Source: a virus (taxonomy: Duplodnaviria > Caudoviricetes). Taken from it: a DNA stretch of 35,053 nt. Of this stretch, positions 10,398-18,430 are shown one piece after another (the first letter of the stretch is position 1; every line of letters starts with the position of its first letter). The notes under the pieces are model-generated. The model saw only the letters and a program-made list of their open reading frames with translations. It was not told where the DNA came from and did no database searches. The translations under genes were made by a program, and so were the position numbers. The stretch covers positions 1-35,053 of IMG/VR virus record IMGVR_UViG_3300037195_000566; one strand, 5' to 3'.

Positions 10398-10530
10398 TTT
10401 GTTTTTTTATTCTTTTTAAAGCAATCTGTATTCTGCTTAACTGTTGATTAATATGTACTTGAATATTTAATAAGGCAATTTGATATGCCATTAATTCATT
10501 TTCATTTGATTCTTTAATCTCTATATCCAT
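10375..10530 (-). CDS. 51-aa hypothetical protein (not in ORF track)
   Basis: MDIEIKESNENELMAYQIALL...GSEEDK*; fills the operon gap. Confidence 0.5.
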   Translation of the reverse strand: MDIEIKESNENELMAYQIALLNIQVHINQQLSRIQIALKRIKKQNGSEEDK

Positions 10531-10532
10531 AA

Positions 10533-10685
10533 TTAAAACCATTCGGCAGCATCAGCTACCTTCCATTCAATATTTCTTTTAAATTTATTACGCTTACCAT
10601 AAGAAAGTGCGTCTTCTTCTTGTAGCCACACTTCCGTTGTAAATAATTCCCATTTTCCGTTTCTTTTCCAAATAATACAGTACAT
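10533..10685 (-). CDS. 50-aa hypothetical protein (not in ORF track)
   Basis: MYCIIWKRNGKWELFTTEVW...AAEWF*; TAATG coupling. Confidence 0.55.
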   Translation of the reverse strand: MYCIIWKRNGKWELFTTEVWLQEEDALSYGKRNKFKRNIEWKVADAAEWF

Positions 10686-11008
10686 TACCAATCTCTTGAT
10701 ATTTTCTTCATGGCACCTGTTTCATTATTAATAAAATATAATAAATGCCAAACAGCTAAATCATAAGGTTTTCTAGCTGTCTTACAGAAATTAAAAGACT
10801 CTTGATCATTTTTTTTATTAATATAAAATGTTTCATGATCCAGACCTTTAATTGCCACCCCATTAAACATTATCTCATCTTTGTTTTCTGATTGATCAAT
10901 TATTATTCCTTCACCCATTTCTTTTAACCATTCATATTCATCTTTTACTCTTTTCCACTCATCATCAGTGAAAGCTCTTTTATTATACCAATAGTTTGTG
11001 TATCCCAT
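10685..11008 (-). CDS. Conserved phage hypothetical protein
   Basis: MGYTNYW ... I.FNG....HETF ... FNFCKTARKPYDLAV, a recurrent phage family pattern; SD GAGGAG. Confidence 0.75.
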   Translation of the reverse strand: MGYTNYWYNKRAFTDDEWKRVKDEYEWLKEMGEGIIIDQSENKDEIMFNGVAIKGLDHETFYINKKNDQESFNFCKTARKPYDLAVWHLLYFINNETGAMKKISRDW

Positions 11009-11010
11009 AA

Positions 11011-11253
11011 TTATTTCTCCTCTGGAAATGGCATTGGTATATCTAATACTGTAGTAGTAGGTTTAGTACCATCTAGTTTAAATTCATACCTAGCACTTTC
11101 GGCATCATCTAAATGCCATTCAACTTCTTCTTCAGTATATATTCCAATTTTATTTAATCCTTCAATAAATTCATGCTTGTTTATCTTACAAGCACCATAA
11201 TCATTTTGAAGTTTTTCTATTTGTTCTTTTAAACATTCACCTTGTTTGCTCAT
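11011..11253 (-). CDS. Acidic hypothetical protein
   Basis: ORF track; start taken at MSKQGE after GGAG. Confidence 0.6.
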   Translation of the reverse strand: MSKQGECLKEQIEKLQNDYGACKINKHEFIEGLNKIGIYTEEEVEWHLDDAESARYEFKLDGTKPTTTVLDIPMPFPEEK

Positions 11254-11322
11254 ATCATTCTCCACAAAAAAAAATAACAAGCTAATCCGCCAAGAATTAT
11301 AATTAATAAATCCATCAACATA

Positions 11323-11505
11323 TTATTCTCCTACATTAACATTAGGTTCTTTTCGTTTTAGTTCGTAAGGTATTTCAACTTTTTCAGGCATATGTTTTGC
11401 TACCGCATAACAAAGACCTAAAACTATTCTTATTGGAAACATGATTGCAATCCAAATCCATTTAGCTGCAACATTCATTAACCAATTTTGTATTGTTTTT
11501 AGCAT
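11323..11505 (-). CDS. Small membrane protein
   Basis: Hydrophobic core WIWIAIMFPIRIVLGLCYAVA; SD AAGGAG. Confidence 0.65.
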   Translation of the reverse strand: MLKTIQNWLMNVAAKWIWIAIMFPIRIVLGLCYAVAKHMPEKVEIPYELKRKEPNVNVGE

Positions 11506-11569
11506 TTCTTTCTCCTTTTTAAGTTACACTTATTGATTGTTATCATCACCGCACATTGTGAGTACATCA

Positions 11570-11998
11570 GGGTGAGTAAAATATGAGGTCTAGAATCTCC
11601 AACATATTAAACTCACCACTGATCCCAGACCCATCGGGGGCTAGCAGTTACTCAGATGCCCAATGGATCAGGGATCAGCCCTGTTCTGCCGTTATCTAGT
11701 ATCGGTAGCCTTGCAGAGTCTAAAACTAGAAATCCACTTGCAAGTTTAAATCACGACAACTGATCCCAGACCCATAAGCTAATCGTTTCTGCTCGTTACA
11801 CCCATAAACGACAATGGGCAAACTCATTACCCTATGGATCAGGGATCAGCCCTGGCGCGGTTCCAAGTATTTCTACCATCGCTACTTATCCAGATTCCTT
11901 TATCGCGCTGATCCCAAATCCAACAGGGATGCCATTCGGCAGCAACCCCAAGCGAGGGAGCCAACCAAAGTTGGCGACCGAGCTAGTGTTTTTGCCCC
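11570..11998 (-). ncRNA. Putative structured ncRNA array: repeated conserved stem with variable loops
   Basis: Identical ACTGATCCCAGACCCAT at 11618 and 11759; identical ATGGATCAGGGATCAGCCCTG at 11663 and 11834; degenerate third arm at 11908. G-U pairs favour the minus strand. Confidence 0.6.
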
Positions 11999-12006
11999 TT
12001 TGTTTT

Positions 12007-12023
12007 TTTAGAATAATTCTAAA
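12007..12023. promoter_or_regulatory. ICE-like (Irr-binding iron control element) palindrome
   Basis: TTTAGAA-TAA-TTCTAAA, an exact fit to the TTTAGAA-N3-TTCTAAA consensus. Confidence 0.55.
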
Positions 12024-12029
12024 CACGAT

Positions 12030-12067
12030 AAAAAAAGCCCCCATAGTAATAATTACTACGAGGGCTT
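12030..12067 (-). terminator. Rho-independent terminator
   Basis: Minus strand AAGCCCTCGTAGTAAT-T-ATTACTATGGGGGCTT followed by a T-run, just after the stop at 12079. Confidence 0.8.
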
Positions 12068-12078
12068 AATTTAATAAA

Positions 12079-12585
12079 CTAACCAACCAACTGTTCTTTT
12101 AGTTGATCTTTAAGGAATTGTTTTTGTGCCACATCTACTTTCTTATCTGATGTAGCATTATCTCTTTTAGGTTTAGGAACATAGTCCTTACCAAAAACTT
12201 TCTTATATTCTTTTGCTAAAGTATCTACAATTACTTCAGCTCTACGAATATTAAGCTTTTGGGCTTTGTTTCTAAACAATAAGCTCTCAAGCTTATTTGC
12301 AGAAATCTCAGTTCCTACATCTTCACTTGTAGCTTTCTTAGTTTCTGCAACAGTCTTATCAAATGATGCATTACACATTTCACAATGTCTATAAAAAGCA
12401 CCATAGATACTATCAAAATTCCATTCTGCGATTTTTGACCAATCTTTACACTCAATAAATGGTGTAATAAGACTGCTAATAGCTGTTTGAACCCCAGCTA
12501 TCATATTATTCTCAGATTCATCTAACACTATTTCCATGTTAGCTATTCTTGAATCTGGATCGTCTCTATAAGTTTCAGCACTCAT
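12079..12585 (-). CDS. Hypothetical early protein
   Basis: ORF track; SD AAGGAG. Confidence 0.75.
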   Translation of the reverse strand: MSAETYRDDPDSRIANMEIVLDESENNMIAGVQTAISSLITPFIECKDWSKIAEWNFDSIYGAFYRHCEMCNASFDKTVAETKKATSEDVGTEISANKLESLLFRNKAQKLNIRRAEVIVDTLAKEYKKVFGKDYVPKPKRDNATSDKKVDVAQKQFLKDQLKEQLVG

Positions 12586-12749
12586 ATTGCTCCTTCCATA
12601 TTATTTAATTCAGAGTCAATGTTAGCTAACTCACTAACATCACCCTTCTTAACAGCTTCATCTCTTTTCACTGCTAGTTCTTCAACTCTCTTGATATTTT
12701 TACTATCTTTTGCAATTAAATAGTAATCGAGTAGATCATTAATGTTCAT
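12582..12749 (-). CDS. 55-aa hypothetical protein (not in ORF track)
   Basis: MNINDLLDYYLIAKDSK...MEGAI*; SD AGGGGG; ATGA overlap with the next gene. Confidence 0.6.
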   Translation of the reverse strand: MNINDLLDYYLIAKDSKNIKRVEELAVKRDEAVKKGDVSELANIDSELNNMEGAI

Positions 12750-13026
12750 GAGTACCCCCTAAATCAATTTCACATTCCCATTCATCTTCTTCAGGAAACA
12801 TGTCTTGGAAACATTTATCACAGATACCACTCATCATCATTTCTCTTAAACCTTGAGAAATATAAGAAAAAGCATCTTGGATATATTTTCCTTGATTGAA
12901 TTGAAATAAATCAGAACCTTTAACTGAAACTTTATGCTCTGATTTACACTTAATACAATTCATATCAAAGTGATATTTATGAACTGGATCAAATGTTTCT
13001 TTACTCTTACATCTTAAAAAGTACAT
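12739..13026 (-). CDS. Zinc-ribbon phage protein (first leftward gene)
   Basis: CIKC ... IQDAF......RE...SGICDKCF; SD AAGGAG. Confidence 0.75.
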   Translation of the reverse strand: MYFLRCKSKETFDPVHKYHFDMNCIKCKSEHKVSVKGSDLFQFNQGKYIQDAFSYISQGLREMMMSGICDKCFQDMFPEEDEWECEIDLGGTHEH

Positions 13027-13062
13027 ACTTACTCCTTTAATTAACCCATATCATTTAACACT

Positions 13063-13781
13063 CATGGGATTAGTCGAGCAGTCATCACGAGGCAAAGCTC
13101 AATGATTACATGCGACACAGGAGTCCCTCTTAGGAAATTGTTTACAATTTTCCTTAGAGGTTGCACCTTTAGTGTGCGACTCTCGTGTCCTCGTTCACGA
13201 GCATGTTCATTGAGGCAAACTCGTGCATACAAGCGAGAACATCCCGTGTGTGTGGGGGCCCCATAGAGATAATGAGAAACACAATAATCGCCCCTATCAA
13301 GGAGGTGAATTGCCAAAGGCAAGAGGAACCGTAGGTTCCTGCGATTATGAGTATCGCAATGGTTAAAATCGTAGAGCTGTATAAAAGAGATCGACCCCAG
13401 GGAGATATCTTTTATTTCAAGCTACAGCTCACGATTATAAATCTCGTATGGGGTAACAGAGCGTTGCCTGTGGCAACTCCTTATTCAGATCTTAATGTTA
13501 TCGTTCCAAGGGAGATCGTTAAGAACCGTAGGTTCTTGACAGGTCTTGCCGAGGTCAGTGTTAAATAAAGCCCCCTGTGGGGGGCGTTTAATCTTGTTAA
13601 TTATTTAACATCTGACGAAAGCAAGACCAAGGGAGGTGAGAACCGTGGGCAACGCTAGTTTGCCCACTGTCGAGGAACCGTAGGTTCCTATCTTTCTACC
13701 CTTTGCACAAATCCGAAACGAATAAGTACTTTAAAATAAACGACCAGAGGGAGTGCACCACTTGTGGTTATTTTAAATACT
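13063..13781 (+). other. Large GC-rich structured non-coding element (candidate origin or large ncRNA)
   Basis: Many nested inverted repeats, three GAACC-GTA-GGTTC hairpins and five AGG(G)AG modules; lies between the divergent gene blocks. Confidence 0.65.
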
Positions 13782-13795
13782 TGATGAGTGCAGGA

Positions 13796-13830
13796 TGTGC
13801 GTTGACTAGGCAAATCTTGAGCTATAGTTA
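13796..13830 (+). promoter_or_regulatory. Promoter for terS with upstream TGTGCG motif
   Basis: TGTGCG-TTGACT-17 nt-TAGTTA. Confidence 0.6.
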
Positions 13831-13857
13831 ATGTTAGGGGCAGAATAGAATAACGTA

Positions 13858-14232
13858 ATGAAAGACGAACTAACAGATAAGCAACGAGCATTAGTGGATA
13901 CAATAGTAGCAACTGGATGTACCATTAAGGAAGCTTCTAAAAAGGCAGGATATTCAACGAATGGAAGTGAAGAAGCTGGACGTATAAGTGCTTCTCGTGC
14001 CCTACGTATTCCAAAGGTACAGACTTATATGCAAACACGTATTGCACAAACTCTGGGCCTTGGAGCAGTAAGTGCGAGTAGGAAACTTATCGACCTATCT
14101 AGTGGAGCTAGATCTGAATACGTTCAGCTCGAAGCTTCCAGAGATATACTCGATAGAGTAGGAATGAGAGCACCAGACAAGGTGGCTCACAACGTAACAG
14201 GCGACATTAAGGTTAATATCGACCTGACTTAA
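13858..14232 (+). CDS. terS: Terminase small subunit
   Basis: LTDKQRALV...IKEA.KKAGYS.......S..L..PKV..Y and ASRDILDRVG. Confidence 0.8.
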   Translation: MKDELTDKQRALVDTIVATGCTIKEASKKAGYSTNGSEEAGRISASRALRIPKVQTYMQTRIAQTLGLGAVSASRKLIDLSSGARSEYVQLEASRDILDRVGMRAPDKVAHNVTGDIKVNIDLT

Positions 14233-14403
14233 AAAGTGTCGGTACTACCGACTCTTTGTCCACACCGCTCGGTACGAGGGGTGGGGGCAAAAACACCCAT
14301 CGTTAGATGACTAGTGGAGTAACACACACAATAAGGGTTGTTTTTAGTTCGGTATCGCAGATCTCAAATAATTAGGATCTGCAAAAGGTTCGTTAATATA
14401 TTT

Positions 14404-14553
14404 ATGGCAAAGAAGAAAAATAATTTACTTGCGAAAGAAGTACACGAAAAGAAGTATAAGAAAACTTCTAGTAATAAGAGAAGACCTAAGAAGTCTTCAA
14501 TGAATAAGGGTAAGAAAAGAAGTTTCAAACCTTATAATAGGCAGGGGAAGTAA
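14404..14553 (+). CDS. Very basic small protein
   Basis: MAKKKNN...SSMNKGKKRSFKPYNRQGK; ATG start at 14404. Confidence 0.65.
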   Translation: MAKKKNNLLAKEVHEKKYKKTSSNKRRPKKSSMNKGKKRSFKPYNRQGK

Positions 14554-14594
14554 TGTGCGTTTTTTTAGATAGCATATATTGCTAGACATTAGTT

Positions 14595-14810
14595 ATGTCA
14601 GATAAATTAAAGAATGTTTGGAAACAAATTAAAAGTGCTGCAACAATACACATTATAGATAAAAGTGTTGTTCCTCAAGTTAAAGCAATTAACAAAGAAA
14701 TGAAAACTAGAGCTAATAAAGCACCTTGGTATAAAGAACCAACTTATCAAGATTTAACACTAGCTTACAAAGACGCAGCTAAAATTAATAAAAGTAAGAA
14801 AAAGAAATAA
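14595..14810 (+). CDS. Hypothetical protein, probably leaderless
   Basis: ORF track; no SD; ATG lies 36 nt after TGTGCG. Confidence 0.55.
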   Translation: MSDKLKNVWKQIKSAATIHIIDKSVVPQVKAINKEMKTRANKAPWYKEPTYQDLTLAYKDAAKINKSKKKK

Positions 14811-14878
14811 TCTTTAAGTGCGTTTTCATTTATAACCAATCATATAAATAAGATCCTTCAATCAACAACGGAGGATAA

Positions 14879-15028
14879 ATGTTTAACTTTAAATTAGAAA
14901 TTCCAACATACGCAGAATGGAAAGTTCAGTTTGAAAAGTTCTTAAAAGAACAACCTGAACAAGCTAAGAAATATCAAGAACAAATTCAAAAGTTTTGGCA
15001 AGATTTTTTTAAAGATCTTTGGAAGTAA
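14879..15028 (+). CDS. 49-aa helical protein (not in ORF track)
   Basis: Strong SD GGAGGA; MFNFKLEIPTYAEWK...FWQDFFKDLWK*. Confidence 0.7.
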   Translation: MFNFKLEIPTYAEWKVQFEKFLKEQPEQAKKYQEQIQKFWQDFFKDLWK

Positions 15029-15235
15029 ATGTATTACTTGGTAAAGATTTGGGATAATGAACAAGGCTTTATTTTAAAGAAAGAAATTCTATATCAAGCA
15101 GAAAACGATGTTAGTGCAATGCAAAAAGCAAGTGCTGCTACACCTGATGGCTGCAGATCGACTTACGAAACAATTGATAAAGAAAAGTATGAAAAAGAAA
15201 AGAGGGAAAGGGCAGAAGAAGAAGTTGCTGCCTAA
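15029..15235 (+). CDS. Hypothetical protein
   Basis: ORF track; abuts the previous stop. Confidence 0.6.
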   Translation: MYYLVKIWDNEQGFILKKEILYQAENDVSAMQKASAATPDGCRSTYETIDKEKYEKEKRERAEEEVAA

Positions 15236-15237
15236 AG

Positions 15238-15504
15238 ATGAAAAAAGCTGAAAAAATCCATATGGATAAGGTAGCTAGTCTTGGATGTTATATTTGTTTA
15301 AGACCAGCTTCCTTACACCATATTAGATATCCAGGTTTAGGCATGGGTAGAAAATCTTCAAACTTTGAAGTTATTCCTCTTTGCTATGATCATCATCAAG
15401 GTAAACACTCGATTCATTTAGATAAAAAAAATTTTGAAAAGAATTTTGGTTCGGAAAAAGAAATATTAAATAATATATTGGAGAGAGTAAATGAGCTTTC
15501 TTAG
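15238..15504 (+). CDS. Ref/DUF968-like HNH-fold zinc nuclease
   Basis: VASLGCYIC, HHIR, GMG.KS, VIPLC..HH.G...IH. Confidence 0.8.
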   Translation: MKKAEKIHMDKVASLGCYICLRPASLHHIRYPGLGMGRKSSNFEVIPLCYDHHQGKHSIHLDKKNFEKNFGSEKEILNNILERVNELS

Positions 15505-15679
15505 TAGTTTATCTTTAAAAGATAGAAGACGTTTAAGAACAATAGTTAAGAAAACTCATTTAAGTTATTACCCAACTCATATGATTACTGATTATGAAGC
15601 TGATAAATTAGTAGAAGCTCTTGGGGAAGAAACTATCTACAATATGCTTAAAGCTAATGTAGGTACTAATGTCGATTAA
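15491..15679 (+). CDS. Conserved small protein preceding terL
   Basis: ORF track; overlaps both neighbours. Confidence 0.65.
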   Translation: MSFLSSLSLKDRRRLRTIVKKTHLSYYPTHMITDYEADKLVEALGEETIYNMLKANVGTNVD

Positions 15680-17611: not shown

Positions 17612-17750
17612 TGAGATCATTGAAGCTATTGAAGACTTACACGCACAAGAACAAGATCTATTAGAGCAATTAAAAAAAATAATTAACCCTGATGATGACG
17701 ATTTTAACGATGATGACTTTGACCGTAATGATTTTATGGATGACAAATAA
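17586..17750 (+). CDS. Small protein with highly acidic C-terminal tail
   Basis: MAKKPK...PDDDDFNDDDFDRNDFMDDK; SD AGGGA. Confidence 0.6.
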   Translation: MAKKPKTPNEIIEAIEDLHAQEQDLLEQLKKIINPDDDDFNDDDFDRNDFMDDK

Positions 17751-18430
17751 TGGGTGGTGATACTAACAGCGGAGCTGGTGATACAGAAGTTTCAGCATAT
17801 GAAGCTGAAATCACAAAACAAAATAAAGGCACTAAAAAAGAAATAAATAAAGGTGTTAACATTACAACTTATGCCGACAGAAAAGTTGATACAGCTAAAA
17901 ATACAAAAACTTTTCATGAATCAGGTAAAGTAGATAAAATTGAAAGTCCATTTCTTTTACTGAATGCTGGTAAAGATTTATTAAATAAAGGTTCAGTTGT
18001 AACTAGAGAATTTTTTACAGGTAAAGTTTTAAATAAAGGTATTAAACATAAAGGAACTCATATTAGTAAAACAGCATTTGAGCAAATGTCATTAGAAAAA
18101 CAAAATGAAATTTATGCTGGTTATATGGAAGAAAGAATGTCTGGTAAAACAGATGCTTATGGTAATCCTACAGGTGGATGGAGAAAGGAAACTGTTAAAC
18201 ATAAAAATAAAGATGGAACATATACTACTAAAGAAGTATGGGTGGGTGGTAATGATGGTGATAATAGAAAAACAGAATTACAAATAGAAACAGAATCATC
18301 AACAGCTTCAAAACAAGAAGAAGCCGAAGTTAAAATTTCGGAAGAAGAATATAAAAAAAAACGAGGATTGAAAGGATCAAGATCAATGTTTAGCAATGCA
18401 GGTGGTCGTGGTTTTCTTGATCCAGTATAA
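17750..18430 (+). CDS. Pre-portal hypothetical (virion-associated) protein
   Basis: ORF track; C-terminal KKRG..GSRS.F...G..G.L is typical of the gene before podoviral portals. Confidence 0.65.
   Translation: MGGDTNSGAGDTEVSAYEAEITKQNKGTKKEINKGVNITTYADRKVDTAKNTKTFHESGKVDKIESPFLLLNAGKDLLNKGSVVTREFFTGKVLNKGIKHKGTHISKTAFEQMSLEKQNEIYAGYMEERMSGKTDAYGNPTGGWRKETVKHKNKDGTYTTKEVWVGGNDGDNRKTELQIETESSTASKQEEAEVKISEEEYKKKRGLKGSRSMFSNAGGRGFLDPV

What the first reader, a model, noticed from the sequence alone, without database searches (positions are those of the whole stretch)
11791..14296. Array segments match the phage's own structured element and the post-terS G-rich site, all in one orientation
Seen: (a) loop 2, minus strand AGTTTGCCCAtTGTCG (11824-11809), matches + strand AGTTTGCCCAcTGTCG (13657-13672) at 15/16; the single difference would be a G-U pair in an RNA:DNA hybrid, and the target abuts a GAACC-GTA-GGTTC hairpin. 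(b) The neighbouring loop segment TATGGGtGTAAC-GAGC (11806-11791) aligns with TATGGG-GTAACaGAGC (13447-13462), one indel each. (c) The 5' end of the array, GGGGCAAAAACAC (11998-11986), is identical to 14284-14296, and the following GCTCGGT recurs at 14267-14273. Matches (a) and (c) are not nested, so one intramolecular fold-back cannot explain them. Inference: the RNAs could pair with the minus DNA strand of the origin/packaging region, either priming or regulating the phage's own replication or packaging, or interfering with co-infecting relatives whose sites match better. Match (b) and the 7-mer are weak on their own.
Basis: partly seen in the sequence, partly recalled or inferred. Interest (0 to 1): 0.85.

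Follow-up and report, generated by a model that had tools for sequence, protein, structure and literature searches.

The report
Phage RNA mirrors own packaging site
In a common group of ocean viruses, a short folded element carries a back-to-front copy of a conserved site just after the DNA-packaging gene, the two copies change together from virus to virus, and the element is likely a small RNA that would pair with that site to time packaging; the neighbouring hairpin array is a separate, swapped-in module.

Summary
All three matches are at the stated coordinates, but they belong to two different things. Match (c) is real. It lies in a post-terminator element found in 107 of 124 related phage loci with enough flank. 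That element carries an inverted copy (mostly 8-13 nt) of its own genome's post-terS G-rich/AAA box. The copy tracks the phage's own box across 18 box variants, even between phages with near-identical TerS, and its variable end is mostly predicted unpaired. Matches (a) and (b) lie in one cassette of a separate alternating-repeat hairpin array, which the scan had already noted on other DNA. That cassette is identical in three HTVC023P-type phages and absent from close relatives that keep target (a). Match (a) beats local shuffles (P about 0.003) but not genome-wide ones (0.09), and 144 family cassettes show at most a weak excess against these leaders. The 7-mer is not conserved. Best reading (0.35): an early RNA pairs with the bottom strand at a pac-like site. 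Expression, pairing and pac identity are untested. Inversion was not seen, and read depth argues against a 2.3-kb terminal repeat.

The parts
11935..12026 (-). Post-terminator element (candidate small RNA): TTTAGAA-N3-TTCTAAA hairpin, box copy, TCGG/CCGA stem, ends in TGCTGCCGAA
   Evidence: 107 of 124 terS loci with >=1.9 kb upstream carry one; fold (z -1.4, weak on its own)
11986..11998 (-). Box copy (match c), same sequence as the plus strand of the post-terS box
11935..11944 (-). TGCTGCCGAA, one of 5 exact strand-polar copies in the window
12030..12067 (-). Intrinsic-terminator-like hairpin and U-tract directly 5' of the element
   Evidence: sequence; same layout in relatives
12079..12585 (-). 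168-aa protein of unknown function, last gene before the terminator
   Evidence: no PHROG; no Pfam above cut-off; Atlas hits under 0.9
11619..11928 (-). Alternating L/R repeat array (R-L-R-L-R) with four hairpin cassettes; likely imported module
   Evidence: family mostly in HTVC027P-like phages
11776..11833 (-). Loop-2 cassette holding segments a (11824-11809) and b (11806-11791)
   Evidence: identical in L089, L529, L531; absent from L368 and L055
13030..13800 (+). Non-coding structured element: conserved core 13060-13283 and three C(GTA)G mini-hairpins (13326, 13523, 13675); likely a plus-strand ssDNA signal
13444..13462 (+). Target b; begins in a GTATGG(G/A) motif present in 40 of 72 leaders
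13657..13672 (+). Target a; 3' arm of a GTGGGCAA/TTGCCCAC hairpin, lineage-restricted
   Evidence: found in L368 (identical) and L053 (14/16 to the cassette)
13858..14232 (+). Terminase small subunit
   Evidence: PF03592 E 2e-8; phrog_51
14233..14340 (+). Post-terS site: hairpin, G-rich hairpin, AAA box (14284-14296), hairpin, CACACAACAG-type motif; candidate pac region
   Evidence: G-run/AAA layout in near and distant relatives; weak depth step

Best explanation
The post-terminator element carries an inverted copy of its own genome's post-terS box and is likely a small early RNA that would pair, through a loop or bulge, with the bottom strand of that likely packaging (pac) site and so hold back late read-through or the terminase cut until late in infection. 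SHOWN: the inverted copy; its conservation; its covariation with the phage's own box; and, in one clade, a two-piece copy that joins the sequences on both sides of the site's G-rich hairpin. PREDICTED BY FOLDING: the variable end of the copy is mostly unpaired, and the element folds better on the minus strand. INFERRED: transcription by read-through of the terminator, an RNA:DNA hybrid, the pac identity of the site, and the timing role. The repeat array with matches (a) and (b) is a separate module, likely inserted behind the element from HTVC023P-type phages.
For: (1) Element in 107 of 124 loci with enough flank. (2) Mean longest exact match to own box 8.8 vs 6.6 to others; own best or tied in 18 of 26. 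(3) One representative per box class (18 classes): none of 200 permutations reached the self score in any of 300 draws. (4) Own post-terS window in the top 5% of the locus's 100-nt windows in 27 of 52 and the top 10% in 37 of 52. (5) L515 and L518 share 123 of 124 TerS residues but have different boxes, and each copy matches its own box; likewise the window and L466 at 117 of 124. (6) L058/L420 pairs over about 30 nt with the stretch right after the stop codon, -38 kcal/mol. (7) Last 4 matched nt unpaired 0.71 vs 0.44 for the rest of the element, higher in 21 of 28. (8) Wobble favours minus-sense pairing 16 vs 4 of 26; the element folds better as minus in 35 vs 16 of 52. (9) Depth is 1.1-1.25x over and right of the site in 3 runs, and about 1.5x in the one X5 contig 13336-14967.
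Against: No expression evidence: the one RNA run covers only 12161-12436. 10 of 52 pairs have no exact match of 8 nt or more; in L047 and L441 the element is instead a direct repeat of a post-terS insert. L473, L265 and L020 mismatch their own box. 17 loci, mostly distant relatives, keep the G-rich site but show no element. The wobble bias comes mostly from one clade whose bases are also constrained by an internal stem; duplex energy favours minus only 17 vs 9. The window's element folds no better than shuffles (z -1.4). Its conserved 3' end is a strand-polar motif that also occurs in late genes, which points to a DNA-level signal. Rows are related genomes. The depth step is confounded by GC (0.37-0.38 vs 0.30-0.34). 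An 8-13-nt hybrid is short for invading duplex DNA without a protein, and no partner protein was identified.
Confidence: 0.35

Rival explanations
1. Both copies are DNA sites read by one phage protein (terminase or a regulator); they change together because the protein's preference drifts.
For: The element's conserved end is a strand-polar DNA-like motif (11 copies in the window, 10 on one strand, 0.13 expected). The post-terS site has fixed-spaced motifs.
Against: The box and its copy change while TerS stays at 123 of 124. One clade's copy joins two pieces about 45 nt apart across a hairpin. The variable bases are predicted unpaired. A terminal repeat bounded by the two copies predicts 1.75-1.9x depth; about 1.1-1.25x was seen.
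Confidence: 0.22
2. RNA-RNA antisense of the C4/CI type: the element pairs with a leftward (anti-terS) transcript across the post-terS site, one controlling the other.
For: Same covariation, loop display and G-U bias. The target box lies in a linker between two hairpins. In one clade the element lies just before a ribosome-binding site.
Against: No leftward promoter right of the site was evident by eye in the aligned flanks (no promoter scan was run). The site folds better on the plus strand (z -3.6 vs -2.1). No Rfam C4-type hit.
Confidence: 0.2
3. Long-range fold-back of one single DNA strand during replication: the two copies close a 1.5-2.3-kb loop holding the mini-hairpin leader and terS.
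For: Leaders carry C(GNA)G hairpins on the plus strand, 31 vs 4 distinct, the motif described at phage ssDNA origins (PMC13037366, passages).
Against: The mini-hairpins point to the plus strand, while the element's stems and wobbles point to the minus strand. An 8-13-bp closure over kilobases is weak.
Confidence: 0.12
4. For (a) and (b) only: the cassette is an anti-competitor RNA of HTVC023P-type phages aimed at the leader of this phage lineage, picked up here by recombination.
For: Two segments of one cassette hit one element on one strand (P 0.003 and 0.013 locally; duplexes -28.6 and -21.3 kcal/mol). The cassette sits in three HTVC023P-type arrays with no such target in their fetched flanks.
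Against: The cassette is invariant, so covariation cannot be tested. Family-wide excess is weak: 19 vs 9.8 at score >=12 and 4 vs 2.9 at >=13, one of 8 region/strand tests; 25 vs 26.5 against whole loci. An equally long match (14 nt) centred on its loop falls in a coding gene of 4 of 14 HTVC023P-type homologues.
Confidence: 0.2
5. Neutral homogenisation (template switching or inversion) keeps two short inverted repeats alike.
For: Imperfect tracking in several genomes.
Against: No inversion isomer in 177 loci. No strand-changing joint was listed in 8 runs. It does not explain the two-piece copy or the fixed position after the terminator.
Confidence: 0.05

Closest known systems
C4 antisense RNA of phages P1/P7 (PMC5320573, passages)
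   Same: Small structured phage RNA, processed from a longer transcript, with variable loops that give target specificity.
   Different: No Rfam C4 match. The target here is a non-coding site after terS, not ribosome-binding sites, and may be DNA.
TIGR-Tas stem-loop arrays (PMC12045711, passages)
   Same: Phage array of palindromic units with variable inserts; two-piece guide idea.
   Different: No Nop-domain protein found. Inserts are about 15-130-nt hairpins, not two 8-12-nt spacers. Both pieces here match the same strand.
Rfam Flavobacterium-1 RNA (RF02976)
   Same: Occurs at the 3' end of a leader of the same L/R array family (L527, 104 bits).
   Different: No match in the window or in 14 other array loci. 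It covers a different segment, not the repeat or the box copy.
ssDNA priming signals with GNA mini-hairpins: G4 origin, ssiA, N4 promoters (PMC13037366, passages)
   Same: CCGTAGG hairpins here; L053 has CCGAAGG, the ssiA core.
   Different: Concerns the target element, not the RNA. No primase gene was found and nothing was tested.
phi29 pRNA and ColE1 RNA II (both recalled, no call)
   Same: An RNA tied to packaging; a G-rich RNA hybrid at a functional DNA site.
   Different: pRNA is structural and does not pair with DNA; RNA II acts in cis. No Rfam hit to either.

Membership tests
C4-type phage antisense RNA | C4 three-stem structure (Rfam model) | tested here: not met
   no C4-family hit at E<=5 in 10500-15500
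C4-type phage antisense RNA | Variable unpaired segment complementary to the phage's own target | tested here: met
   (unpaired state is predicted)
C4-type phage antisense RNA | Target is an RNA | not testable with these tools
   only contigs available; the RNA run does not cover the site
TIGR-Tas | Adjacent Nop-domain protein | tested here: not met
   47 ORFs in PHROGs, 15 in Pfam, one in the Atlas: none; no fold search was run
TIGR-Tas | Two 8-12-nt spacers matching opposite strands | tested here: not met
   inserts long and variable; both matched pieces on one strand
CRISPR mini-array / DGR / retron | Direct repeats with cas genes, or a reverse transcriptase | tested here: not met
   repeats alternate in orientation; no RT; only a weak Cas-associated hit on the RecE-like gene
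Rfam Flavobacterium-1 | RF02976 score above gathering | tested here: not met
Invertible segment | Both orientations in the population | tested here: not met
   0 of 177 loci
Long direct terminal repeat bounded by the two copies | About twofold depth between the copies | tested here: not met
   about 1.1-1.25x vs 1.75-1.9x expected; contig means, library type not on record
pac site (headful packaging) | Fixed virion end with raised depth downstream | tested here: inconclusive
   small step, GC-confounded, no raw reads
Pelagiphage L/R cassette array (scan note e1-8181221) | Alternating repeats forming a stem with a U-U mismatch, and swappable cassettes | tested here: met

The most novel reading that the evidence does not exclude
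These phages use a self-encoded guide RNA to mark their own packaging site, so packaging specificity is set by base pairing rather than by TerS alone, while HTVC023P-type phages trade RNA cassettes that can jam competitors' origins or leaders.
Probability: 0.15. Interest if true: 0.92.

Novelty: new variant of a known kind. Interest (0 to 1): 0.68.

Why it matters
HTVC010P-type and HTVC023P-type phages are the two most abundant known pelagiphage groups (PMC12753301, passages). HTVC010P-type genomes encode no DNA or RNA polymerase (PMC8477408, passages), and how they time replication and packaging is open. A co-evolving pair of sites gives a clean compensatory-mutation test. The analysis also points to a candidate pac site, a candidate ssDNA origin and a strand-polar motif. 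Recognition of a packaging site by RNA base pairing was not found in the searches made.

Tried and rejected
- Rfam over 10500-15500: best E 0.039, on the terminator; nothing above gathering.
- Cassettes against their own flanks: no excess apart from local repeats. Against 80 terS loci plus the window: 25 vs 26.5 at score >=14. Against post-terS sites: 7 vs 4.4 at >=11 and 0 vs 1.5 at >=12.
- The 7-mer: not conserved.
- UNCG RNA tetraloops as the reading of the GAACC-GTA-GGTTC hairpins: the required outer C occurs in only 7 of 31, so DNA mini-hairpins fit better.
- Inversion and a 2.3-kb terminal repeat: rejected above.
- The polar motif pairing with the late transcript: a good complement only in a few lineages.
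- Skadi-1 was fetched for its ends; they fall in terL, and it has no C(GNA)G cluster and 1 polar motif, so it was uninformative.
- RNA run X20 (share 0.08) covers only the 168-aa gene; this is no evidence either way.
- The 168-aa protein gave only Atlas hits under 0.9.
- The last leader-fold comparison gave invalid energies and is not used.
- The supplement of PMC5737381 could not be read; it may describe the context of Flavobacterium-1 and related motifs.
- No covariance model, structure prediction or complex job was run.

Full report
CONTEXT. The window is a whole or nearly whole 35-kb phage record. Leftward early genes face rightward late genes; terS is at 13858, an HNH-like gene at 15238 and terL at 15669; there is a DnaA C-terminal-domain protein and no polymerase hit. 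This fits the description of HTVC010P-type pelagiphages (PMC8477408, passages). The only cultured terS match served was Pelagibacter phage Hodr, 58%. The group assignment therefore rests on gene content, not on an alignment to HTVC010P.

OBSERVATION. The three matches are exact as reported. Shuffle results: two array hits scoring >=13 in the non-coding plus post-terS plus strand, against a mean of 0.004; four genome-wide, against 0.84. Match (a) has P about 0.003 locally and 0.09 genome-wide. Match (b) has P 0.013 for the rest of the loop, but 47 of 200 whole-array shuffles reach it.

TWO THINGS, NOT ONE. L055 and L368 have the same 5' element as the window, followed by a small gene, and only then array units with other cassettes. 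So 11935-12026 and 11619-11928 are separate modules.

THE ARRAY. A scan for the repeat arm gave 120 stretches, about 380 estimated in the collection. Of 122 loci examined, 84 had two or more repeats and 57 had three or more, mostly alternating L and R. Most flank a different gene set: 44 of 83 carry a 200-aa protein that I recall as Gp88-like, a name not tested here. One array locus matches HTVC027P, and HTVC027P itself has an L/R hairpin behind a sigma-70-like promoter. Cassettes look like RNA: the sense strand is more stable in 106 of 144, GNRA loops are 8 vs 2, and there is no C(GNA)G on the sense strand. Rfam Flavobacterium-1 matches one segment of one such leader among 15 loci scanned. 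An earlier scan note (e1-8181221) describes what appears to be this family; it supplied the Flavobacterium-1 lead.

MATCHES (a) AND (b). The loop-2 cassette is identical in L089, L529 and L531, all in HTVC023P-type arrays or gene contexts; L530 is identical to the window over its length and is not independent. L368 keeps target (a) unchanged and lacks the cassette. Close strains in runs X6 and X7 skip or replace array units. Target (a) was found in only two other viral contigs. Target (b) starts in a motif present in 40 of 72 leaders, but only TATGGG is shared. Across 144 non-redundant cassettes (of 183), hits to these leaders were 19 vs 9.8 at score >=12 and 4 vs 2.9 at >=13, scattered in position; the opposite strand gave 16 vs 14.1 and late genes 12 vs 7.8. 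I read (a) and (b) as chance or, at about 0.2, anti-competitor targeting.

MATCH (c). A strict pattern found the element in 68 of 115 terS loci, 36 non-redundant. A broader pattern on more loci found 119 of 184, and 107 of the 124 with at least 1.9 kb upstream; the 17 without it are mostly at 50-74% TerS identity. It follows the terminator, about 1.0-1.8 kb upstream of terS. The copy follows the genome's own box: AAAATCAT, AAAATTCAT, AAACTCAC and AAACCCAC in one clade; GGGCAAAAAC followed by AC, AAC or C, GGGCAAAACTAAA and GGGAAAAATAG in others.

STATISTICS FOR (c). Self 8.8 vs non-self 6.6 nt; self best or tied in 18 of 26 (one row with N dropped, duplicates merged). An exact match of >=8 nt in 42 of 52, counted from the list (one row with N dropped; a few of these matches are to other parts of the site). 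Class-level permutation 0 of 200 in each of 300 draws; top 5% of own-locus windows in 27 of 52. Rows are related, so individual contrasts weigh more. L515 and L518 share 123 of 124 TerS residues but have different sites, and each copy matches its own. In one clade the copy joins GGCGTTG, just after the stop codon, to the AAA box across the G-rich hairpin; L054 extends the first piece to 12 nt where its site has an insertion. L058/L420 pairs over about 30 nt just after the stop. Exceptions: 10 of 52 lack an 8-nt match, L473, L265 and L020 mismatch, and in L047 and L441 the element is a direct repeat of a post-terS insert.

STRAND AND MOLECULE. The element folds better as minus in 35 vs 16 of 52. 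Wobble favours minus 16 vs 4 and duplex energy 17 vs 9 of 26, partly owing to an internal stem. The variable end is predicted unpaired in 21 of 28. The pre-terS element has a different signature: 31 distinct C(GNA)G hairpins on the plus strand against 4 on the minus, with outer base G in 15. This is the mini-hairpin motif described at phage ssDNA origins (PMC13037366, passages). It is likely a DNA signal, which is inference. The element's conserved end, TGCTGCCGAA, occurs five times in the window, all on the minus strand, against 0 in 100 shuffles. In 186 loci it has 56 distinct contexts on the minus strand upstream of terS against 2 elsewhere. A degenerate form gives 10 of 11 on minus, late genes included. 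This supports a DNA-level role for that part and is the main argument for the protein-site rival.

WHAT THE SITE IS. Contig depths over 11862-14967 are 22.7, 19.7 and 15.6 against about 19-20, 15-18 and 13 elsewhere. In X5 they are 21.9 for 13336-14967 and 14.7 for 11862-13038, against 11-17 (X1 may be the source sample). A terminal repeat between the two copies predicts 1.75-1.9x and is rejected, provided the libraries reflect virion DNA. A pac-type start near the site fits weakly and is confounded by GC. No inversion isomer was seen in 177 loci.

MECHANISM. I commit to an early RNA pairing with the bottom strand at a pac-like site, which is also the template for terS-to-late transcription, and acting as a timing brake (0.35). 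Rivals: shared protein site 0.22, RNA-RNA antisense 0.20, ssDNA fold-back 0.12, neutral 0.05. No step beyond sequence covariation and predicted folding is shown.

LITERATURE. Searches (listings only) and passages of PMC8477408, PMC10504331, PMC5737381, PMC12753301, PMC13037366, PMC12045711 and PMC5320573 showed no description of this element. The library lacks most subscription papers, and one supplement was unreadable.

VERDICT. Observation partly confirmed; interpretation partly supported. It works like a self-specific phage antisense RNA but fails the C4, TIGR and Flavobacterium-1 membership tests. New variant of a known kind, interest 0.68.

Noticed in passing
window 1640, 2331, 3517, 8129, 8603, 10542, 11098, 11935, 14348, 26957 (minus); 19561 (plus): Strand-polar motif G(A/C)T(A/G)CCGAA, 10 of 11 copies on one strand against 0.13 expected, in early and late regions; also polar in relatives, nearly absent from HTVC023P-type loci, Skadi and Hodr. 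Could be a Chi-like, priming or translocation signal.
   Followed up: partly
window 13060-13283: Non-coding core conserved across many related phages (68-90% identity), with no Rfam match.
   Followed up: partly
window 13444-13453: Motif TGCGTATGGG/TCGTATGGG followed by a variable hairpin, in 40 of 72 leaders.
   Followed up: partly
window 84, 1194, 7430, 13796, 14554, 17534, 21256, 33102: TGTGCGT(TG) boxes, 8 on plus vs 3 on minus, several in front of rightward genes; possible late-promoter activator sites.
   Followed up: no
L047:2400-2490; L441; elements of L003, L005, L006, L051: A different module (GAAAGAAC-N5-GTTCTCTC..CTCTCCC) fills the post-terminator element; in L047 and L441 it also sits right after terS in the same orientation.
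   Followed up: partly
window 11862-12002: The R-L cassette here has about 2000x depth in run X7 against about 10x for the phage, so it is shared with far more abundant phages.
   Followed up: no
L201 (HTVC027P, record about 17650-18220): A cultured phage with a published infection transcriptome carries an L/R hairpin and cassettes in the leader of gp34-gp33; a ready test system.
   Followed up: no
L094, L089, L104, downstream of arrays: Runs of CAAGC-type 7-mer repeats follow the arrays in HTVC023P-type phages.
   Followed up: no
window 12007-12023; L055, L089, L190: Palindrome TTTAGAA-N3-TTCTAA(A) recurs after terminators and after arrays in both phage groups.
   Followed up: no
L527, L528: The only two prokaryote-genome hits for the full hairpin are short contigs in a Flavobacterium single-cell genome and a Terriglobia MAG; L527 looks like phage DNA.
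   Followed up: partly
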